Shown piece after piece: positions 10,413-63,527 of a stretch of 64,000 nucleotides of DNA (positions are counted from its first letter, which is position 1; each line of letters begins with the position of its first letter). The translations under genes and the position numbers were made by a program. This stretch comes from Heterodontus francisci (taxonomy: Eukaryota), in the NCBI RefSeq assembly GCF_036365525.1, contig NW_027140807.1:930001-994000 (forward strand). The letters run 5' to 3'. Below the pieces are notes generated by a model, which worked only from the letters and a program-made list of their open reading frames with translations, searched no databases and had not been told where the DNA came from.

Positions 10413-10492
10413 CTTTTTTGCATGTGTGTCTATCACTGTGGGGACAACAGGGACACGGTGATAAAATCCAATGCAACCTCCGTACAAAAACC
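10413..10492 (+). other. TRBD: TCR beta D1 segment GGGACAACAGGGA (10441-10453) with 5' 12-RSS and 3' 23-RSS
   Basis: CTTTTTTGC-12-CACTGTG | D | CACGGTG-23-ACAAAAACC. All three frames are open. Confidence 0.96.
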
Positions 10493-11319: not shown

Positions 11320-11933
11320 GTAAGGCGACTATGTATTTCTGTTCCTCCAATCGATCAGAATCTATGTTCAGTTAAAAAAGCACCAGGAGTAATGTTCAGA
11401 TATTAGATACATTAAAGGGTTAACTCATGAGGACTGGTTACTCAGACGAAGCTGACAGTCCCTCGAATATAGAATTTTAAGGGCTGATATCATGGAGGGA
11501 TTTGAGGTGTTGGATAGATAGAGAGAGAAACTGCTTCCTCAGGTTGCGGGGAGTCCAGAACAGTTTAAATTATTGCCATTCAGGGATGATATCAGGAAGC
11601 ACTTCTTCATGCAAAGGTTAGTGGAAATGATGGATTCCACCCCGACCCCATAAAAAACAATCAGTTGAGACTGAGGGTCAATTGATAAATACAAATCCAA
11701 GATTGATAGAGCTGTGTAAAACAAAAGTATTGAGGGTTACAGAACCAAGGCGGATTGATGGAGTTAAGATTCAGATCAACCTTGATCGAACTGATCGAAG
11801 GGCTGAACGGTCACCTTCTGTCCCCATGTTCCACCGACCTTTACGGTCATTGACATAATAGGAACTTCAATGGAACAGACTTAACAGTCGAGAGGGATTG
11901 AAGGGGATTTTGTGACAGCCCCATACCAGTGTG

Positions 11934-19659: not shown

Positions 19660-19739
19660 CTTTTTTGTATGAGTGTCGATCACCGTGGGGACAGGGGGGA
19701 CACTGTGATAGAATCCAATGCAGCCTCCGTACAAAAACC
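19660..19739 (+). other. TRBD: TCR beta D2 segment GGGACAGGGGGGA (19688-19700) with 12/23 RSS
   Basis: CTTTTTTGT-12-CACCGTG | D | CACTGTG-23-ACAAAAACC. The core GGGACAGGGGG is the pan-vertebrate Dbeta motif. Confidence 0.97.
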
Positions 19740-20692: not shown

Positions 20693-21281
20693 GTAAGGGA
20701 CTCTGTTCTTCCGATCAGATTAACATCTAGGTTTATATGCGGTTAAAAAATCACGGGGATTACGTTCAGATATTAGATGCAGAAAGGGGTTAAATCTTGA
20801 GGACTGGTAACTCAGACTGGTGACAGTCCCTTGAATCTAGATCATTAAAGGGCTGATATAATCGAGGTGCTTGATGTGTTGGATAGAGAGAGAGAAACTG
20901 CTTCTTCAGTTTGGGGGGAGTCCAGAACAATTTAAATTCCAGCCGTTCAGGGGTGATATCAGGAACTCTCCCCGCACCCCCACAACAAAATAAAATACTG
21001 TTGAGACTGGTGGTCAATTGATAAGTTCAAATCCAAGATTGTTAGAGTTTTGTTAAACAGAGGTATTGAGGGTTACAGAACCAAGGTGGGATGATGGAGT
21101 TAAGATTCAGATCAACCCTGATCTAATTGAATGGTGGAACAGGCTAGAAGGGCTGAACGGCCACCTCCTGTCCCCCTGTTCCAACACCCTTTACGGGCCA
21201 TTGACACAGTCCGAACTTCAATGGAACAGACTGAACAATCTAGACTTGAGGGGGATTTTGCGACAGCCCCATACCATTGTG

Positions 21282-28231: not shown

Positions 28232-28773
28232 GTAGGTAAACAAAAATAGATCTCAATATGCAAATTTAATTCGCTCTAAGTGTTCATTCATTGCTTCGTA
28301 AATCTGCCAAAACTCACAAACCTAGACACATACTGGAAAACGTGAATCCCAAGATGCACAATTTTGCAAAGACAACGTTACCAGACTTCTCTGTATCTCC
28401 CCTCTGGCCACCCCCTTTCATAATCTTTGGCGCCTCTTTCAGGTCACCTCTAAGCCTTCTCTTATCTATCGTAAAGGCCATTCAGTCTTTCCTGATAGGT
28501 AAATATATATGAAAGCGAGAACTGTGCACAGTGATCCAAGTGCGGTCTAACCGAGGGATATGGAGACCAGAACTGTGCACAGAACTCCAAGATCGTCTAA
28601 GCAAATTTTACCATAATTTCTCTGCTTTCAAATGGAATGGTGGAGAAAAGGTCAAACAAATCTACACATTGCAATTGGTTGAATGATAACTGTTCAAAGG
28701 TGTCAGAGCATTCGATGAAGTATCGTGTAATCATTGGTCCCCAGCAGTTTTAATACTGCTTTGTAACACTGTG

Positions 28774-33660: not shown

Positions 33661-33905
33661 TGATAGGAAAGGGCTCTAGATAATGGGACAAGGTGAGTGA
33701 TAGCCTTTTTATTGAGAACAGGCTGGCCCAGAGTTCAGGACGACACTTTTCAGATAGACAGGAGAACCTCTTTCATAATGAGACAGACTTGTACTTCCCT
33801 CAATGACTAAGAGGTTGAGATGATCATTTTCTGCCACTTTGGGTTAAAATGTACAAAAGCAGGTCGAGGTTGCAAACTGATTCTACGTTTTATGACTGAT
33901 CGGTG

Positions 33906-33958
33906 TTCGGGAAACAGAGAGGTTTATTCTGGAGTTGGCACAAAATTAACTGCTCTGG
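33906..33958 (+). pseudogene. TRBJ: relic J SGNREVYSGVGTKLTAL, 93 bp upstream of the C exon
   Basis: F-to-S in FGxG, donor GT-to-CT, poor RSS (ATCGGTG); TKLT.L retained. Confidence 0.8.
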
Positions 33959-34051
33959 CTAGAATTGAAAGGTTGATATTGTTTGGTGGTTTAAAATTCT
34001 CAAGACGGGTTTCATACTCATCCATATTCTCTCCATTTACTTTTCCTGCAG

Positions 34052-34402
34052 GCGAAAACGATACGATTAGGCCTGCCAAAGTTACTGTCTTTGAGCCCTC
34101 TCCCGAAGAGATTAGAGAAAAGAAAAAAGCCACTGTGGTCTGCCTCGTAAGCGACTTCTACCCCGACAACATCAAGATCCACTGGCTTGTCGATGGCAAG
34201 GAGAAAGATGCCAATGACACGAACATTCACACTGATCTCAATGCCATCCTATCAAAAGAAAATACATCTTACAGCATCAGCAGCCGGCTGAGATTCGACG
34301 CCCTAGATTGGGCTCGGTCCAAGAACGTTGAGTGCAGAGTCGATCTCTACACTAACGAATCAGTGCCTACAACAAGCAGTTCAACATTAGCTGTCAAAGC
34401 AG
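34052..34402 (+). CDS. TRBC: TCR beta constant exon 1 (Ig C1 domain)
   Basis: cctgcAG acceptor; VTVFEPSPEEI..KATVVCLVSDFYPD..W..SISSRLRF..W..VECRV; GT donor at 34403. Confidence 0.97.
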
Positions 34403-40100: not shown

Positions 40101-40619
40101 TCTCTCGCTGCCTGTCTTTCTCTCCATATTCTATCCTGTCTGTCTATTTGTCTCTCTCCATCCCTTCCCCTCTCTTTCCCTCTGTCTTTCTCTCTCTCCA
40201 TCGCTTCCCTTCTCTTTCCCTCTGTCTTTCTCTCTCTCCATCCCTTCCCCTCTCTTTCCCTCTGTCTTTCTCTCTCTCCATATCTTGCCCCCTCTGTTTG
40301 TTTATCTCTCTCTCTCGCTCCCTTGCCCCCTCTTCCCCTCACCCTCTCTCTCTCTTTGTCTCTCTCCCCAGCTCTCCCTAGCTCTTTCTCTCACACACAC
40401 AATCTGGTCTCGAATCACATCCCTTCCCCTTTTTTCCCAGTACTTGCTCACTCCCCGTTCCAATTCTCCATATATAAAAAAAACAACCCTAAATGCAAAA
40501 TTTCAGCAGTAACACTGGAAAATATCAATGAGACAGAGCAGAGTCGGCCAAACGTTCACTGAAATCTTACATACTGTATGTGGGTAAAGATTTGGCTTGT
40601 TAAAGTGATTGTCTGCTTG

Positions 40620-41010
40620 AGTGAACCGGAGCGATAATGAGCTGTGACTTTAAAATTCGGTTACAGTGTCATTTCCTCCGGAAAATATTAACTCAAAACA
40701 AGACTGGAGCTGGAATATAACATTGTGCAGCTGCACGGAAAGATATCAAACGGAGGCCGTGGGATGTGAACTTTCAAATGGTGCAGCTCAGCTTTCTGCA
40801 TGCAGGCGCGCTGCACGGTTTGTAAAGTAGGTCATTGCGCCCGAATTTCACCCTGTGGTTTAACGGAAAGTGCCACCTGTTATTGTTGCTGTGCTCTCCG
40901 CTCAGAGGCTGGCAGATTGAGCCCATGTTTGTCTCATTTCCTACTGGGTGAGACGCTGTCTCTGGGCCCCGTGCACCTGCCCCCTCCATGCAGAGGAAAT
41001 GTGGCTGCTG
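40620..41010. promoter_or_regulatory. candidate TCR enhancer module A
   Basis: Non-repetitive island with RUNX TGTGGTT (40854) abutting Myb TAACGG (40861), E-boxes (40728, 40874, 40974), an ETS-RUNX-like GAGGAAATGTGGC (40993) and an ROR-like AAGTAGGTCA (40825). Confidence 0.5.
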
Positions 41011-41659
41011 GGTCAGTGCAGCAAAGTCTGTGATGCCTATTGCAGCTGAATTTCCTTCTTCAGCATTTTTATATCATTCATTTAGTTATGCTTTCAGTCT
41101 TCAGTTCCTTATTTTAATTATCTTTCTTCCTCCCCATCATTCTTTTATCCTTTCTTTAATTCTTCTCTTCCATCAATTTTTTTATTTCATCCAATCAAAC
41201 TTTCTGTTATTGTATCGACCAATTTTCTATCTTTTGTCATTCCTTTCAATCTACTCCTCTCCTTCATTGTTTATCTTTCTTTCTCTCTATCTCTCTTCCT
41301 CTCTGTCTTTCTTTCTTGTTCTGATTTCTTCTCTCCATTTTCTTTCCCTTCTCTTTTTCTTTCTCTACTTTCTCATTCCTTCCCGCCCCCTTTTTCCTAA
41401 ACTCTTCTCCTTCCTTGGATTTATCTTGCAGTTCTTCTCTCTTTTCTCGTCACGTTCTTTCAATCTCTTTTTTCCCCCTTTTTCACCCAAACAAACTTTC
41501 TTTTTTCCTGCCCCCTGTCCTTCCTCCATCCTGTCTTTCTCACTGGAGCTCAGGATGATGGAATTGGATGAAATGTTGATCTCTGCTGCCACCTGCTGTC
41601 TGTGATCTTATATGCAGGTCCTGTCAATGAGAGTCCAATGTCAATCTGGTGCACAGAAA

Positions 41660-45004: not shown

Positions 45005-45037
45005 TTACTCAAAACTTTTCATCAACTTTCCTGAAAT
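45005..45037 (-). pseudogene. inverted Cbeta-like gene, exon 4 (cytoplasmic ISGKLMKSFE*)
   Basis: Strong polypyrimidine-cAG acceptor, phase 0; ends K-x-F-acidic-stop like TSYSKRFD*. Confidence 0.65.
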
Positions 45038-46337: not shown

Positions 46338-46447
46338 CTTCCCCTTGAGCAGCACGATGGTGATCTTTGCCATAGACAGGAAGCTTTTGGAGATGAGTAA
46401 AGTGTAAGCAGCTCTTGCCACAATCTGTTGCCTCTGTATCCGCTCCA
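46338..46447 (-). pseudogene. inverted Cbeta-like gene, exon 3 (TM; VERIQRQQIVARAAYTLLISKSFLSMAKITIVLLKGK)
   Basis: tctttcAG acceptor, GTATGA donor, phase 1-0. Aligns with functional exon 3, including IQ and Y.LLI.KS with the TM Lys. Confidence 0.85.
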
Positions 46448-46620: not shown

Positions 46621-46638
46621 CTTTCCCTTCACATAGGC
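46621..46638 (-). pseudogene. inverted Cbeta-like gene, exon 2 (GLCEGK, interchain Cys; acceptor AG-to-CG)
   Basis: 18-bp phase 1-1 exon, GTGAG donor, long T-rich tract ending ttgcCG. Confidence 0.7.
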
Positions 46639-52938: not shown

Positions 52939-53267
52939 CTGCCTTACTGCTGATCTTGGCATCTTGAGAAATCTCTGTGCCGGCTTTACTGTAATGGGTC
53001 ACTTTGCAGGAATACTGCTTGCGGGCCCCATTCGGCCATGAGAACCCTCACCCTACTGGTCCAAGCTGTAGCGGTCTGCATCATCCTTTACCTGCCTGTC
53101 AGTCAGCACATCCTTCGTCTCGATCTCCTCGTTGGCCCCCGTCCAGGAGAACTTCCCGCAGTCCGAGAAGAAGCCACTGGCCAGGCATACAATAGTGGCT
53201 TTCATGATTTCTTCATCCGACAGCTCAAAAACGGTCACGGTGGGATGCTAAACCTCTTGGTCTGCCT
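52939..53267 (-). pseudogene. inverted Cbeta-like gene, exon 1 (Ig C1 domain)
   Basis: cacAG acceptor, GTGAGT donor. Conceptual translation EADQEV*HPTVTVFELSDEEIMKATIVCLASGFFSD..FSW..VLTD..RYSL/TSRVRVLMAEW/ARKQYSCKVTHY..ISSKA, with one stop and two +1 frameshifts. Confidence 0.92.
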
Positions 53268-53534: not shown

Positions 53535-56500
53535 AGATCGGGAGGGTTATTGGGGCTGGAAGAGGTTACAGAGTTGAGGAGTGTAGCAGGGGCTGGAGGG
53601 GGTTACAGAGATAGGGAGAGGTGCAGGGGATGAAGGAGTTTCCAGAGATAGGGAGGGTTGTAGAGGCTGGAGGATGTAACAGAAATAGGGAGGATTCAAT
53701 TTAGTTATACAGCACTGAAACAGGCCCTTCGGCCCACCGAATCTGTGCCGACCATCAACCACCCATTTATACTAACCCGACATTAATTCCATATTCCTCC
53801 CACATCCCCACCTGCACCCACCGATACTAGGGGCAATTCATAATGGCCAATTTACTTATCAACCTGTAAGTCTTTGGCACGTGGCAGGAAACCGGAGCAT
53901 CTGGAGGAAACCCACATGGACACAGAGAGAAATTGCAAACTCCACACAGGCAGTACCCAGAATTGAACCCGGGTCGCTGGAGCTGTGAGGCTGCAGTGCT
54001 CACCACTGCGCCACTGAGCCACTGAGGGTTGTCGCGGCTAAAGAGGTTACAGAGATAGGGAGGGTTGTAGGGGCTGGTTGAGTTCCAGAGATAGGGAGAG
54101 CTGTCGAGACTGGGGGAGGTAACAGAGATAGGGAGGGTTGCAGGGGCTGGTAGAGTTTACAGATATAGGGAGGGGCTTAAGGGCTGGAGGAGGTTACAGA
54201 GATAGGGAGGGTTGTAGGGGCTGGAGGAGGTTACAGAGATAGGGAGGGTTGTGGTGGCTGGATGAGGTAACAGAGATGGGGAGGGTTGTAGTGACTGGAG
54301 GAAGTAATAGAGATAACAGTGCTGAAGTGGGTTACAGAGATAGGGAGGGTTGTAGAGGCTGGAGGATGTAACAGAAATAGGGAGGATTCAATTTAGTTAC
54401 ACAGCACTGAAACAGGCCCTTCGGCCCACCGAATCTGTGCCGACCATCAACCACCCATTTATACTAACCCTACACTAATTCCATATTCCTACCACATCCC
54501 CACCTGCACCTACCTATACTCGGGGCAATACATAATGGCCAATTTACTTATCAACCTGCAAGTCTTTGGCACGTGGCAGGAAACCGGAGCACCCGGAGGA
54601 AACCCACATGGACACAGAGGGAAATTGCAAACTCCACACAGGCAGTACCCAGCATTGAACCCGGATCGCTGGAGCTGTGAGGCTGCGGTGCTCGCCACTG
54701 AGCCACTGAGGGTTGCAGGGGCTAAAGAGGTTACAGAGATAGGGAGGGTTGTAGGGGCTGGTTGAGTTACAGAGATAGGGAGAGCTGTAGGGACTGGGGG
54801 AGGTAACAGAGATAGGGAGGGTTGCAGGGGCTGGTAGAGTTTACAGATATAGGGAGGGGCTTAGGGGCTGGAGGAGGTTACAGAGATAGGGAGCGTTGTA
54901 GGGGCTGGAGGAGGTTACAAAGATAGGGAGGGTTGTGGTGGCTGGAGGAGGTTACAGAGATAGGGAGGGTTGTGGTGGCTGGAGGAGGTTACAGAGATAG
55001 GGAACGTTGTAGTGACTGGAGGAAGTAATAGAGATAGGGAGTGCTGATGGGGCTGGAGGAGGTAACAGAGATAGGGAGTGTTGTAGGGGCTAGTAGAGTT
55101 TACAGATATAGGGAGGGGATTAGGGGTGGAGGAGGTAACAGAGATAGGGAGGATTGTAGGGGCTGGAGGAGGTTACAGAGTTTGGGAGGGTTGTAGGGGC
55201 TGGAGGAAGTTACAGAGATGGGGTGGGGTGTAGTGGCTGGAGGAGGTAATAGAGATAGGGAGTGCTTTAGGGACTGGAGGAGGTAACAGAGATAGGGAGG
55301 TTTGTAGGGGCTGGAAGACGTTACAGAGATAGGGAGGGGTGCAGGGGCTGGAGGAGATAACAGAGATAGGGAGTGGTGTCGGGGCTGGAAGAGGTTACAG
55401 AGATAGGGGGCTTTAGGGGATGGAGGAGGTTACAGAGATAGGGGTGGGTGTAGAGGCTGGAGGATGTTACTGAGATAGGACGGGTTTTAGGGACTAGGAA
55501 GAGGTTACAGGGATAGGGAGGAGTGTGGAGGCTGGAGGTTACAGTGATAGGGAGGGCTGTAGGGGCTGGAGGTGGTAACAGAGATAGGGAGGGTTGTAGG
55601 GGCTGAAAGATGTTACAGAGATAGGAAGGGGAGTCGAGGTTGGAAGAGGTTACAGAGATAGGGAGGGTTATCAGGGTTGGAAGAGGTTTCAGAGATAGGG
55701 TGGGTTGTAGAGGCTGGAGGAGGCTATAGAGTTAGGGAGGGTTGTTGGGGCTGGTAGAGTTATCAGAGATAGGGAGAGCTGTAGGGGCTGGGGGAGGTAA
55801 CAGAGATAGGGAGGGCTGTAGGGGCTGGTAGAGTTTACAGATATAGGGAGGGGTTTAGGGGCTGGAGGAGGTTACAGAGATAGGGAGGGCTGTCGGGGCT
55901 GGAGGAGGTTACAGAGTTAGGGAGGGTTGTAGGGGCTGGAGGAAGTTACAGAGATAGGGTGGGGTGTAGGGGCTGGAGGAGGTTACAGAGATAGGGAGGG
56001 TTGTAGTGGCTGGAGGAGGTGACAGAGATAGGGAGGGCTGTCGTGGCTGGAGGAAGTAATAGAGATATGGAGTGCTGTGGGGGCTGGAGGAGGTAACAGA
56101 GATAGGGAGGGCTGTAGGGGCTGGTAGAGTTTACAGATATAGGGAGGGCTTTAGGGGCAGGAGGAGGTAACAGAGAAAGGGAAGGTTGGAGGGGCTGGAG
56201 GAGGTTACAGAGATAGGGTGGGGTGTAGTGGTTGGAGGAGGTTACAGAGATAGGGAGGGTTGTAGTGGCTGGAGGAGGTTACAGAGATAGGGAGGGTTGC
56301 AGTGACTGGAGGAGGTAATAGAGATAGGGAGTGCTGTAGTGGCTGGAGGAGGTAACAGAGATAGGGAGTCTTGTAGGGGCTGGTAGAGTTTACAGATATA
56401 GGGAGGGATTTAGGGGCAGGACGAGGTTACAGAGTTAGGGAGTGCTTTAGGGGCTGGAGGAGGCAACAGTGATAGGGTGGGTTGTAGGGGCTGGAAGACG

Positions 56501-59500
56501 TTACAGAGATAGGGATGGGTGCAGGGCCTGGAGGGGATAACAGTGATAGGGAGTGTTGTCGGAGCTGGAAGAGGTTACAGAGATAGGGAGGGTTGCAGGG
56601 GCTGGAGGAGGTTACAGAGATAGGGTGGGGTGTAGGGGTTGGAGGAGGTTCCAGAGATAGGGAGGGTTGTAGTGGCTGGAGGAGGTAACAGAGATAGGGA
56701 GGGTTGCAGTGACTGGAGGAGGTAATAGAGATAGGGAGTGCTGTAGTGGCTGGAGGAGGTAACAGAGATAGGGAGTCTTGTAGGGGCTGGTAGAGTTTAC
56801 AGATATAGGGAGGGGTTTAGTGGCAGGATGAGGTTACAGAGTTAGGGACTGCTGTTGGGGCTGGAGGAGGTAACAGTGATAGGGAGGGTTGTAGGGGCTG
56901 GAAGACGTTACAGAGATAGGGATGGGTGCAGGGCCTGGAGGAGATAACAGAGATAGGGAGTGTTGTCGGAGCTGGAAGAGGTTACAGAGATAGGGAGGGT
57001 TGCAGGTGCTGGAAGAGATTACAGAGATAGGGATGGGTGTAGAGGCTGGAGGAGGTTACTGAGATAGGGAGGGTTTTAGGGACTAGGAAGAGGTTACAGG
57101 GATAGGGAGGGGTGTAGAGGCTGGAGGAGGTTACAGAGATAGGGAGGGCTGTAGGGGCTGGGGGAGGTAACAGAGATAGGGAGGGTTGTAGATGCTGGTA
57201 GAGTTTACAGATATAGGGAGGGGTCTAGCGGCTGGAGGAGGATACAGAGTTAGGGAGGGTTGTAGGGGCTGGAGGAGGTTACAGAGATAGGGAGGTTTGT
57301 CGGGGCTGGAGGAGGTAACAGAGATATGGAGGGTTGTAGGCGCTGGAGGAGGTTACAGAGATAGGGAGGGTTGAAGGGTCTGGAGCTGGTAACAGAGATA
57401 GAGAGAGCTGTAGGGGTTGGGGGAGGTAACAGAGAAAGGGAGGTCTGCAGGAGCTAAAGCAGGTTACAGAGATGGGGAGGGGTCTAGCGGATGAAGGAGG
57501 TTACAGAGATAGGGACGGGTGTAGGGGCTAGAGGAGGTAACAGAGATAGGGAGAGCTGTAGGGGCTGGAGGAGATAACAGAGTTAGGGATGGGTGAAGGA
57601 GCTAGAGGAGGTTGCAGCGATAGGGTGGGTTGTAATGGCTGAAGGAGGTTACATAGATGGGGAGGGTTGCAGGGGCTGGTGGAGTTTACAGAGGTAGGAA
57701 GTGTTGTCGGGGCTGGAGGAGGTAACAGAGTTAGGGATGGGTGTAGGGGCTGGAAGAGGTAAATGAGATAGGGAGAGCTGTCGGGGTTACAGGATGTTAC
57801 AGAGTTATGGAGGGGTGTAAGGGCTGGAGGAGGGTACAGAGATAGGGAGGGTTGTACGTGCTGGAGGAGGTTACAGAAATAGGGAGGGTTGTAGTGGCTG
57901 AAGGAGTTTACAGTGATAGGGAGGGGTGTAGCGCCTGAAGGAGGTAACAGAGATAGGGAGAGCTGTAGGGGCTGGAGGAGATAACAGAGTTAGCGATGGG
58001 TGTAGGAGCTGGAGGAGGTTACAGCGATAGGGTGGGTTGTAATGGCTGAAGGAGGTTACAGAGATAGGGAGAGCTGTAGGGGCTGGAGGACGTTACAGAA
58101 ATAGGGAGGGTTGTAGTGGCTGAAGGAGTTTACAGAGATTGGGAGGGTTGTCGGGGCTGGAGAAGGTTACAGGGATAGGGTGGGTTGTAGGGGCTGGAGG
58201 AGGTAACAGAGATAGGAAGAGTTGCAGGGGCTGGAAGAGGTTACAGAAATAGGGAGTGGTGTAGAGGCTGGAGGAGGTAACAGACATAGAGAAGGGTGTT
58301 GAGGCTGGAGGATGTTACAGAGATAGGGAGGGTTGTAGGGGCTGGAAGAGGTTACAGAGATCGGGAGTGGTGCAGAGGTCGGCGCAGGTTGCTGAGATAG
58401 AGAGGGTTGTAGGGTCTGGAGGAGTTCTCAGAGATAGGGAGAGCTGTCGGGGCTGGAGGTGGTAACTGCGATAGAGAGATCTGTATGTGCTGGAGGAGGT
58501 AACAGAGATAGGGAAGGTTGCAGGGGATGGAAGAGTTTACTGAGATCGGGAGGTGTGTAGAGGCTGGAGCAGATAACAGTGATAGGGAGGGCTGGAGGGA
58601 CTGGAGGAGGTAACAGAGATAGCGAGGGATGTCGGGGCTGGAAGAGGTTACAGAGATAGGGAGTGGTGTAGAGGCTGGAGGAGGTAACAGATGTAGGGAG
58701 GGTTGTTGGGGCTGGAGGAGGTCACAGAGATAGGGATGGGTGTAGGGGCTGGAGGAGGTTACAGAGATAGGGAGGGTTGTAAGGGCTGGAGGAGGTAACA
58801 GAGATAGGGATGGGTGTACGGGCTGGAGGAGGTAACAGAGATAGGGAGGGCTGTAGGGACTCGAGAATCTGACAGAGATAGGGAGAACTGTAGGAGCTGT
58901 AGCATGTTACAGATATATGGAGGGGTGTTGTGGCTGGAGGAGGTTACAGAGAAAGGGAGGGTTGTCGTGGTTGGAGGATTTTACGGCGAAAGAGACGAGT
59001 GTCGGAGCTGAAGGAGGTTACAGAGATAGGGAGAGCTGTCGGGGCTGGAGGAGTTTACAGAGATAGGGAGGAGTGTCGGGTCTGAAGGAGGTTACAGAGA
59101 TTGGGAGCGGTGTCGGGGCTGGAGGAGTTTGCAGAGTTAGTGAGGGTTGTAGGGGATGGAGGAGTTTACAGAGTTAGGGAGGTTTGTAGGGGCTGGAGGA
59201 GGTGACAGAGTTAGGGAGGTTTGTAGGGGCTGGAGGAGGTGACAGAGTTAGGGAGGGTTGTAGGGGCTGGAGGAAGTTACAGAGATAGGGTGTGGTGTAG
59301 GGGCTGGAGGAGGTTACAGAGTTAGTGAGGGTTTTGGTGGATGGAGGAGGTTACAGAGTTAGGGAGGGTTGTAGGGGCTGGAGGGGGTTACAGAGATAGG
59401 GAGGTTTGTAGGGGCTGGAGGAGGTGACAGAGTTAGGGAGGGTTGTTGGGGTTGGAGGAAGTTACAGAGATAGGGTGTGGCGTAGGGGCTGGAGGAGGTT

Positions 59501-60110
59501 ACAGAGTTAGTGAGGGTTGTAGGGGATGGAGGAGTTTACAGAGTTAGGGAGGGTTGTAGGGGCTGGAGGAGGTTACAGAGATAGGGAGGTTTGTAGGGGC
59601 TGGAGGAGGTGACAGAGTTAGGGAGGTTTGTAGGGGCTGGAGGAGGTGACAGAGTTAGGGAGGGTTGTAGGGGCTGGAGGAAGTTACAGAGATAGGGTGT
59701 GGTGTAGGGGCTGGAGGAGGTTACAGAGTTAGTGAGGGTTGTAGGGGATGGAGGAGGCTACAGAGTTAGGGAGGGTTGTAGGGGCTGGAGGGGGTTACAG
59801 AGATAGGGAGGTTTGTAGGGGCTGGAGGAGGTGACAGAGTTAGGGAGGGTTGTAGGGGCTGGAGGAGGTGACAGAGCTAGGGAGGGTTGTAGGGGCTGGA
59901 GGAGGTTACAGAGATAGAGAGGGTTGTAGGGGCTGGAGTATGTTACAGAGACAGGGAGGGTTGTTGGCGTTGGAGGAAGTTACAGAGATAGGGTGGGGTG
60001 TAGGGGCTGGAGGAGGTTACAGAGTTAGGGAGGGTTGTAGGGGCTGGAGGAGGTTACAGAGATAGAGAGGGTTGTAGGGGTTGAAGGAGGTTGCAGAGAT
60101 AGGGAGGGTT
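53535..60110. repeat. 37-bp G-rich tandem repeat array (about 6.5 kb)
   Basis: Unit GGGGCTGGAGGAGGTTACAGAGATAGGGAGGGTTGTA. Confidence 0.97.
53697..54705 (-). mobile_element. two HE1/V-SINE-like tRNA-derived SINE copies (about 53697-54020 and 54388-54705)
   Basis: On -: A-box TGGCGCAGTGG, B-box GGTTCAATTC, V-domain-like gtgggtttcctccgggtgctccggtttcc, CR1-like tail. Duplicated together with flanking satellite (about 690-bp period). Confidence 0.8.
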
Positions 60111-61960: not shown

Positions 61961-62119
61961 CCCCTCTCTGCACCAAAGAGACACAATGATCGAAGTGCCT
62001 CTTCCAACACAATAAGAAGATCCCATCTGGTCAGACACGGTAAACTCAGATATTATTGTGTGTACCGGCTCCTTTTACCCCCACTCAACCTCCAGCAGCT
62101 GGACTCGAGCATTACTTAC

Positions 62120-62168
62120 CCAGTACGGTGAGTCGGGTCCTACCTCCGAAGGTAGCTGGATCGTTCAC
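62120..62168 (-). CDS. inverted J segment VNDPATFGGRTRLTVL (FGGR, non-canonical)
   Basis: RSS on + CACAGAG-12-ATTGAAACC (62169-62196); GTAAGT donor on -. Confidence 0.88.
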
Positions 62169-62397
62169 CACAGAGAGTGAACCCCCCATTGAAACCCCCT
62201 CCCCCAGCATGCCTCTCGCCTTGCCTGGGCAGTTTGCTATCTCTTCAGGGGGCATGTGCCCCATGAGATGGTCAACTCAGGATTCAGTCTGCTCCTGCCT
62301 GTCCTGACAGTGGAGGCGCCTTGCTGCAGGGGTGGGGATATCCTGGGCACTGGGGCAGGCAGTCGGGTAGCCTGTGAGAAGGGCAAGCGGACGGTGG

Positions 62398-62478
62398 AGT
62401 TCTTGCACGGGGTGAGCACAGGAATGTAACACGGTGCTATACTGACCTCCCACGATGTTTCAAAGCAGTTCAATAAAA
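62398..62478 (-). other. inverted D segment GGAGGTCAGTATAG (62437-62450) with 5' 12-RSS and 3' 23-RSS
   Basis: On -: ..TTTTATTGA-12-CATCGTG | D | CACCGTG-23-GCAAGAACT. Confidence 0.85.
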
Positions 62479-63527
62479 CCTCTCCCCCCTCTCTCTCTCA
62501 TTTTTCTGTCCCTTTATCTCTCACTTCAAATTTCCCTTTTCATCACGTGTCCTTCCCTTTTCCGAGTTATTATCCCATTGGAAGTCTCCTGTTTCCATCA
62601 ACACTGCTCTCCTCCATATTTTAATCTTCTTCTCCCTGTATCAGTCTCTCGACAAGTCTTTCTCTCTCTGTGACTCCATTCCTGTCTCTGTCTGTCTTTT
62701 TCTCTCTCTCTCCATCTCTCCCCGTCCCTCTGAAACCCTTTTCTGTTTCTGTCTCCCTCTTTCTCTGTCTCTCCCTCTCTCTCTCTCTCTTTGCATCTCT
62801 GTCTCCCTCTCTCTCTGTCTCTCTGTCTCTCTCTATCTCTATCCCTTTCTCTCTATCTATCTATCTTCCTCTCTCTTTGTCTCTCTTTCTGTCTCCCTCT
62901 CTGTCTGTGTCTCTCAATCTCTTTGTCTTGATCTCTGTTTTGCTTCTTCCATTTATTCTTTTTCTCCCTTTCTCTCTCTCTATCTTTGCCTGTCTCTGAT
63001 GTTCTTCCTTTTCTCTCTCAGCATCACATCTCTCACTGTCTCTCGTTCTCTGCCTCTCTTTGTCTCTTTCTGTCTCTCCCAGTCTCTCCATCTCTGTCTC
63101 GCTATTTCACTCTGTCTCTCTTTCTGTGTCTAAAACTATCACACTACATCTCTGTCTATCTGTCCCTGACTGTCTGTCTGTCTGTCTTTCCCTCTGTCTC
63201 TCTATTTACCTGTCTCTCTCTCTCTCCATCTCTCTGTCTGCCTCTCTCTCTCTCTCTGTCCCTGTCTCTCCCTCTGCTTCTTTGTCTTGTTCTCTGTTTA
63301 CCTTTACTCTTTCTCACCCTTTCTCTCTCTCTCTATCTTTGCCTGTCTCTGACGTTCTTCTTTCTTCTCTCTGCCTCTCACTCTCTCACTGTCTCTGTCT
63401 GCCTCGCTCTGTGTTTCATTCTTTCTCTCTGTCTCTCCAACTGTCGCACGACCTCAACTGTTTCTCTTTCTGTGCCTGACACAATCTCACTCTATCTCTG
63501 TCTACTGTCTCTCTCTGTCTATCTGTA

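What the first reader, a model, noticed from the sequence alone, without database searches (positions are those of the whole stretch)
62120..62478. Novel D sequence with apparently usable RSSs that could recombine by inversion into the functional locus
Seen: D = GGAGGTCAGTATAG (GGQY/EVSI/RSV*), unrelated to the conserved GGGACAGGGGG core, with CAC-intact heptamers and exact 12 and 23 spacers; the adjacent J also has a good RSS and donor. From the 12/23 rule: this D's 23-RSS could join + strand Js by inversion, + strand V 23-RSS could join its 12-RSS, and D1/D2 could join the inverted J. Inference: the cassette may still add CDR3 diversity, or act as a non-productive sink, even with a dead C.
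Basis: partly seen in the sequence, partly recalled or inferred. Interest (0 to 1): 0.7.

Follow-up and report, generated by a model that had tools for sequence, protein, structure and literature searches.

The report
Dead second shark TCR-beta cassette
The odd D segment is the diversity piece of a second, back-to-front T-cell-receptor-beta gene unit that this shark carries in 24 assembled copies, each examined copy of its constant gene being broken while related sharks have an intact one, so the D is likely a decaying relic that adds little or nothing to the receptor repertoire, whereas the intact V genes in front of it likely still serve the working receptor gene next door.

Summary
The D (62450-62437, minus strand), its signals and the J are real. 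They do not need inversion: a V array lies upstream on the same strand, outside the window. The cassette is the 3' end of a second TCR-beta unit set tail to tail with the working one. The genome (horn shark, by a 99% match to an NCBI-named protein) holds 24 D copies, each with the same V 7-10 kb upstream; 18 of 21 working C exons face a broken C. All 24 second-type C exons share one frameshift. Intact orthologues exist in two catsharks and whale shark (tree support 100/100). The D signals are weaker than D1/D2's, and 23 of 24 Js lack an intact FGxG. D, signals and J vary like neutral flanks, while all 24 proximal Vs keep perfect signals. An RNA-like run shows unrearranged D-J transcripts and J spliced to the dead C, from other copies; no junction was seen, at low power. 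Verdict: pseudogenised second TCR-beta type; inversional use of this D is possible but unshown. An earlier scan note had already reported multiplied TCR-beta units in this genome.

The parts
62437..62450 (-). D segment of the second TCR-beta unit, 14 nt, frames GGQY/EVSI/RSV*
   Evidence: identical in 23 of 24 genome copies
62451..62480 (+). 5' signal of the D: heptamer 62451-62457 (5/7); 12-spacer 62458-62469; nonamer 5/9 at spacing 12 (62470-62478) or 7/9 at spacing 14 (62472-62480); resembles one plus-strand J signal with a 2-nt insertion
62398..62436 (-). 3' 23-spaced signal of the D (6/7 + 6/9); spacer 14/23 identical to those of D1 and D2; CAC changed to TAC in 4 of 24 copies
62169..62196 (+). 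12-spaced signal of the J (6/7 + 6/9)
62120..62168 (-). single J, VNDPATFGGRTRLTVL, FGxG motif broken; GT donor at 62119
   Evidence: this J type is spliced to the second C in run X5
54708..60110 (.). 37-bp minisatellite (146 copies) in the J-C intron
52939..53267 (-). pseudo-C exon 1 (Ig domain): early stop, 9-nt deletion, two frameshifts, one of them shared by all 24 copies
46621..46638 (-). pseudo-C exon 2 (hinge, LCEGK); acceptor reads CG instead of AG in this copy
46338..46447 (-). pseudo-C exon 3 (transmembrane, keeps the Tyr and Lys; 51-53% identical to catshark and whale shark)
45005..45037 (-). pseudo-C exon 4 (cytoplasmic tail ISGKLMKSFE*), resembles the catshark tail
10441..10453 (+). 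D1 of the working unit (comparison)
19688..19700 (+). D2 of the working unit (comparison)
28746..28773 (-). 12-spaced signal of a plus-strand J whose spacer equals the majority allele of the D's 5' spacer (12/12)
34052..34402 (+). working C exon 1, facing the pseudo-C tail to tail; 21 copies in the assembly, pN/pS 0.03 among the 12 fetched

Best explanation
The segment is the D of a second, inverted TCR-beta unit (V array, one D, one J, four-exon C) whose C is frameshifted in all 24 copies found, so the D-J-C end is likely a decaying pseudogene cassette and likely contributes little or nothing to functional CDR3s. Shown: same-strand V array, D, J and four C exons; tail-to-tail pairing with the working unit; the shared frameshift; intact orthologous C in catsharks and whale shark; unrearranged and J-to-C spliced transcripts from some copies. 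Inferred: the two C types split before these shark orders diverged; the second C died in the horn shark lineage before the two-unit block was amplified; any V-D-J join made here by deletion yields a message with an early stop; and the intact upstream Vs are kept because they join the working D-J-C, by inversion as mammalian TRBV30 does or by deletion into a neighbouring unit.
For: Own V array: 12 V ends on the minus strand 10-47 kb upstream of the D; the same proximal V lies 6.9-9.6 kb upstream in 24 of 24 copies and a second-type C 3.6-10.4 kb downstream in 23 of 24. 18 of 21 working C exons face a second-type C at 16-20 kb; the other 3 lie near contig ends. 24 of 24 second-type C exons are broken and share one +1 insertion; a search with the intact whale shark protein returned no intact copy among its 150 scored candidates. 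The read-through domain is 52-57% identical to catshark and whale shark proteins and 32% to the working C; they form a 100/100 clade and a clade of the two horn shark Cs is rejected, p-AU 0.008. Decay: J lacks FGxG in 22 of 24 and has a stop in 1 more, donor lost in 1, CAC lost in 4; variable sites in D plus heptamers and nonamers (4 of about 46) and in J plus donor (11 of 54) do not differ from flanks (47 of 358; p=0.49 and 0.21). Contrast: 24 of 24 proximal Vs have open frames and perfect signals; working C pN/pS 0.03 against 0.59 for the dead C. Run X5 covers the unrearranged interval 62125-62420 and has 2 contigs with J joined to the dead C, no loose end at the J 5' side.
Against: No repertoire data: contigs drop rare junctions and the control lay was cut before any CDR3 could be read, so non-use of the D is unshown. 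The neutrality tests have little power (14-nt D; copies about 3.6% apart), and the D is identical in 23 of 24 copies. The signals keep CAC in 20 of 24 copies and score within the range of plus-strand J signals. The proximal V's pN/pS (0.53) is no lower than the dead C's (0.59); its selection is argued from intact frames and signals and from changes clustered at CDR1. One copy (L033) has an intact J. The D and J of the catshark orthologue could not be fetched. All copies are on 7 unplaced contigs, some identical (19 distinct of 24), so the haploid copy number may be lower. The transcribed alleles match other copies, not this one.
Confidence: 0.72

Rival explanations
1. The D still feeds the functional repertoire: its 23-signal joins a plus-strand J by inversion, which lines the working C up behind the minus-strand V array, and a V then joins the D's 5' signal.
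For: 12/23 geometry allows it; CAC heptamers intact in 20 of 24 copies; D identical in 23 of 24; region is transcribed in some copies; inversional joining is routine for mammalian TRBV30 (PMC11264764, passages).
Against: Needs two weak signals; the cassette's own J is 267 bp away and plus-strand Js 30-50 kb; the 5' signal is J-like, and in mouse J-beta 12-signals do not accept V-beta (PMC2642999, passages); no selection on D or signals; no junction seen (low power).
Confidence: 0.1
2. The cassette is kept by selection as a non-productive sink that lowers the chance of productive rearrangement at many TCR-beta units at once.
For: Present beside 18 of 21 working C exons; transcribed and spliced in run X5; deletional V-D-J joins here could only be non-productive.
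Against: Co-amplification of one block explains its presence; signals, J and donor are decaying; no rearranged product seen.
Confidence: 0.06
3. The D was made new in the germline as an imprecise signal joint: a J-type 12-signal fused to a D-type 23-signal with 14 inserted bases.
For: 5' signal aligns with one plus-strand J signal (spacer 12/12 for the majority allele, about 2e-4 under a profile of the other J spacers, chosen after the fact); the exact 19-nt core occurs at 34 of 35 genome sites only in these two contexts; 3' spacer is D-type; the route is proposed in PMC2193153 (passages); sharks have germline RAG activity.
Against: No homology in 300 bp of flank beyond either signal (p 0.3-0.99); the J keeps its own signal; the D sits where the ancestral D of this unit should be, between a CAWS-type V and the J, and a catshark gene model also runs from a CAWS-type V to this C (P0011).
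Confidence: 0.07
4. The many copies are mostly assembly duplication of a few loci (does not change what the D is).
For: All on unplaced contigs; 3 groups of identical D-J sequences.
Against: 19 distinct sequences, several subfamilies with their own extra lesions in C; up to 8 copies on one contig; alleles of several subfamilies appear in sequencing runs.
Confidence: 0.05

Closest known systems
Second TCR-beta of catshark (Pettinello et al. 2017, title seen in a reference list only; 'two TCR-beta copies' is recalled) and database proteins XP_038657067.1, GCB66422.1, XP_072356531.1, whale shark g47757.t1
   Same: Same C type: 52-57% identity in the Ig domain, matching hinge, transmembrane and tail; 100/100 clade.
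   Different: Intact in those sharks, frameshifted in 24 of 24 horn shark copies. Whether it is the second chain of that paper could not be checked.
Bamboo shark TRB locus (Giorgetti et al. 2023, PMC10322711, supplementary file 16 part 1 read)
   Same: Outer V arrays point at a C of opposite orientation across 34 and 46 kb gaps (38 kb here) and are mostly flagged F (27 of 30).
   Different: No D-J-C is annotated in those gaps; 2 units instead of about 21; both listed Ds are 13 nt, like D1/D2 here.
Inverted pairs of V-D-J-C TRB loci in salmonids and pike (PMC10464911, passages)
   Same: Two complete units in opposite orientation.
   Different: Head to head, recent duplicates, identical G-rich Ds, functional C; here tail to tail, Cs 32% identical, divergent D, dead C.
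Mammalian inverted TRBV30 (PMC11264764, passages)
   Same: V downstream of the working C in reverse orientation; used by inversion in mammals, inferred here.
   Different: One V with no D-J-C of its own; here an array with a relic D-J-C.
De novo D from a signal joint with insertion (PMC2193153, passages)
   Same: J-type 12-signal and 23-signal head to head around a short insert.
   Different: No flank homology and no matching rearrangement geometry.

Membership tests
TRB D segment | 5' 12-signal and 3' 23-signal around a short coding piece | tested here: met
   one of 3 such pairs in the window against a null mean of 0.05; the 5' spacing is 12 with a 5/9 nonamer or 14 with 7/9
TRB D segment | Between same-strand 23-signal Vs and a 12-signal J | tested here: met
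   24 of 24 copies
TRB D segment | G-rich core open in all three frames | tested here: not met
   no such core; one frame ends in a stop; trout TRBD is G-rich and open in all frames
TRB D segment | Near-consensus signals, conserved 23-spacer | tested here: inconclusive
   spacer 14/23 to D1/D2 (met) but 10/16 and 12/16 to consensus against 13/16 and 15/16
TRB D segment | Found in rearranged CDR3s | not testable with these tools
   only contigs were available; no junction seen, power low
Functional TRB V-D-J-C unit | J with FGxG and donor | tested here: not met
   FGGRT here; intact in 1 of 24 copies
Functional TRB V-D-J-C unit | Open C reading frame and splice sites | tested here: not met
   frameshift in 24 of 24; exon 2 acceptor lost in this copy
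Functional TRB V-D-J-C unit | Intact upstream Vs with 23-signals | tested here: met
   24 of 24 proximal Vs; 9 of 12 minus-strand V ends here had a signal called, 1 of those with a stop
Shark second TCR-beta constant type (catshark/whale shark clade) | Groups with catshark and whale shark C, apart from the working horn shark C | tested here: met
   100/100 clade in an 11-row tree without light-chain outgroups, p-AU 0.008; with 2 light-chain rows the clade was weak, 64/77; no catshark first-type C was available
Shark second TCR-beta constant type (catshark/whale shark clade) | Identity with the published second catshark chain | not testable with these tools
   paper not held
Germline signal-joint D | 12-signal traceable to a J and 23-signal to a D or V | tested here: met
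Germline signal-joint D | Flanks carried along from the donor sites | tested here: not met
   no flank homology

The most novel reading that the evidence does not exclude
Sharks have an ancient second TCR-beta chain type with its own non-canonical D, arranged tail to tail with the first; in horn shark its C died, but the D, possibly itself born as a germline signal joint, is still recruited by inversion into the working C across some 20 repeated units. The inverted V behind C-beta in mammals would be the last remnant of such a unit.
Probability: 0.1. Interest if true: 0.8.

Novelty: new variant of a known kind. Interest (0 to 1): 0.45.

Why it matters
A review describes shark TCR genes as translocons like those of mammals (PMC6795676, section read). 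This assembly instead shows about 21-24 repeats of a tail-to-tail block of two TCR-beta types, one dead. That gives a lineage-specific loss of a TCR-beta type that other sharks keep, a D-beta that departs from the conserved core, and a natural test of how many TCR-beta units can coexist with allelic exclusion. It also predicts unannotated D-J-C cassettes in two gaps of the bamboo shark locus.

Tried and rejected
Orphan D that must invert: rejected, own V array and J. V-derived 23-signal: rejected, best V spacer 10/23 against 14/23 for D1/D2. Intact second C elsewhere in the genome: none among scored candidates. No second-type C found within 20 kb of the D copy at C779:584214. Word-index protein search with the N-terminal half found nothing; the whale shark query found only itself. 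PDB search was dominated by immunoglobulin chains and did not type the chain. No RNA holder was listed on record; X5 is treated as RNA only because it shows GT-AG joints; X6 and X7 laid nothing on the D-J stretch, which is no evidence. The control lay on the working unit was cut before CDR3 ends could be read. A first J-scan script printed no J rows and was redone. Six paper look-ups by id found nothing held, among them the 1994 horn shark TCR paper, the nurse shark TCR papers and Pettinello 2017; what they say on multiple horn shark TCR-beta loci is recalled only. Ten literature searches listed no paper describing this cassette; subscription journals are mostly not searched. 8 of 19 supplements of PMC10322711 were not covered by the first search; one of them was then read in part. 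RIC scoring was not available.

Full report
Context. The window is a shark TCR-beta region: a V at 271-570, D1 (10441-10453), D2 (19688-19700), 22 Js called and a four-exon C on the plus strand. It lies on a 1.99-Mb contig of a 6.0-Gb genome. A library protein 99% identical to one copy of the second C is named Heterodontus francisci by NCBI, and that model already joins this J to the broken C.

Observation. The D, its three frames, the heptamers, the J and the donor are as described. The 12/23 pair is beyond chance (3 in the window, null mean 0.05). The signals are weaker than stated. The 5' nonamer matches 5/9 at spacing 12 and 7/9 only at spacing 14. Totals are 10/16 and 12/16 against 13/16 and 15/16 for D1 and D2. 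Shark J signals here are also loose (5-14 of 16 among 19), so the score alone does not prove the signal dead. The J reads FGGRT. The 23-spacer matches D1 and D2 at 14/23 (p=0.0003), more than any of 33 V spacers, so this is a diverged D-beta relative.

What it belongs to. In 100 kb fetched beyond the window, 12 V ends lie on the minus strand, 10-47 kb upstream of the D. Downstream lie four C exons (53267-52939, 46638-46621, 46447-46338, 45037-45005). The cassette is thus the end of a complete second unit facing the working unit tail to tail.

Copies. The D with heptamers occurs 24 times, 19 exactly, with 0 control hits; the second C exon 24 times; the working C exon 21 times; canonical Ds 43 times on these contigs. 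All are on 7 contigs of 0.3-2.0 Mb. Each of the 24 Ds has the same V 6.9-9.6 kb upstream, 23 have the second C downstream, and 18 of 21 working Cs face a second C. Of the 24 D-J sequences 19 are distinct, so some may be haplotype duplicates.

The second C is dead in every copy found. All 24 exons share one extra base, and subfamilies add further lesions. The shared lesion implies that it died before amplification (inference). Intact relatives exist in Scyliorhinus torazame, S. canicula and whale shark. The horn shark domain, read with X at the breaks, is 52-57% identical to them and 32% to the working C. The four form a 100/100 clade and a horn-shark-only clade is rejected (p-AU 0.008); with two long light-chain rows the support was weak. 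I recall that catshark has two TCR-beta genes (Pettinello 2017), but saw only the title.

Selection. Among the 24 copies the J lacks FGxG in 22, has a stop in 1 and is intact in 1; one donor is lost; 4 identical copies lost CAC. Variation in D and signals, and in J, does not differ from flanks (p=0.49, 0.21), at low power. All 24 proximal Vs keep an open frame, both cysteines, the tryptophan and a perfect heptamer and nonamer, with changes clustered at CDR1. pN/pS is 0.03 for the working C (12 of 21 copies fetched), 0.59 for the dead C and 0.53 for the V.

Expression. Run X5 has GT-AG joints from several Js to the working C. On the cassette its contigs cover the unrearranged interval 62125-62420, and 2 contigs continue from the J end into the first bases of the second C. 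This is a germline D-J-C transcript. The alleles match other copies (L032, L034, L040, L048 for the J-signal contig), not this one. No loose end marks the J 5' side. Contigs drop rare junctions, so this does not show absence of rearrangement. X5, X6 and X7 are one sample.

Mechanism. Shown: anatomy, lesions, orthology, transcripts. Inferred: D-to-J and V-to-D by deletion are the natural joins and give only early-stop messages. Inversions of plus-strand Vs onto this D, or of D1/D2 onto this J, also end on the dead C. The one productive route is D to a plus-strand J by inversion, then a V onto the J-like, stretched 5' signal; mouse data say J-beta 12-signals do not accept V-beta (PMC2642999, passages). 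I put that route at about 10%. The intact Vs likely serve the working D-J-C, as mammalian TRBV30 does (PMC11264764). The bamboo shark table shows outer V arrays, mostly flagged F, facing a C of opposite orientation across 34 and 46 kb gaps (F is defined as transcribed in the legend of the sister table), which fits the same layout.

Unexplained. The majority 5' spacer equals that of one plus-strand J signal (12/12), and the shared core occurs exactly at 15 D copies, 19 copies of that J and 1 unrelated site. A J-type 12-signal facing a D-type 23-signal is the layout of a signal joint, a proposed source of new Ds (PMC2193153, passages). Flanks show no homology and the position is that of an ancestral D, so I give this 7%.

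Earlier notes. e1-9975573 reported multiplied TCR-beta units from another piece of this genome; my counts agree and are higher. No note on this cassette was shown.

Verdict. Real feature, partly misread. It is the D of a pseudogenised second TCR-beta type in an amplified tail-to-tail block. New variant of a known kind; interest 0.45.

Noticed in passing
G000 contigs C407, C761, C779, C876, C1317, C1675, C2233: All 21 working TCR-beta C exons found lie on unplaced contigs in alternating orientation, 98-100% identical in protein; some second-type cassettes occur in tandem about 40 kb apart without a working C.
   Followed up: partly
window 40400-41050: Unique sequence between the two C genes with a RUNX-type word at 40854 and an ETS-RUNX-type pair at 40994 (motifs recalled); candidate shared TCR-beta enhancer.
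   Followed up: no
window 11905-11933 and 21253-21281: Two paralogous Js have 13-nt spacers with good nonamers; the second is spliced to C in runs X5 and X7.
   Followed up: no
window 33900-33960: Last J-like segment before the working C lacks the FGxG phenylalanine and a GT donor; likely a pseudo-J.
   Followed up: no
L033 / L070 (G000:C407:502871-508088): The only copy with an intact FGGGT J; its C is still frameshifted.
   Followed up: yes
G000:C779:564001-584241: A V-D-J end with no second-type C found in the next 20 kb.
   Followed up: partly
G000:C407:461253, C761:1969881 and others: D1 occurs in at least three alleles across units while D2 is invariant.
   Followed up: no
window 54708-60110: 5.4-kb 37-bp minisatellite; D-to-C distance varies from 3.6 to 10.4 kb among copies.
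   Followed up: no
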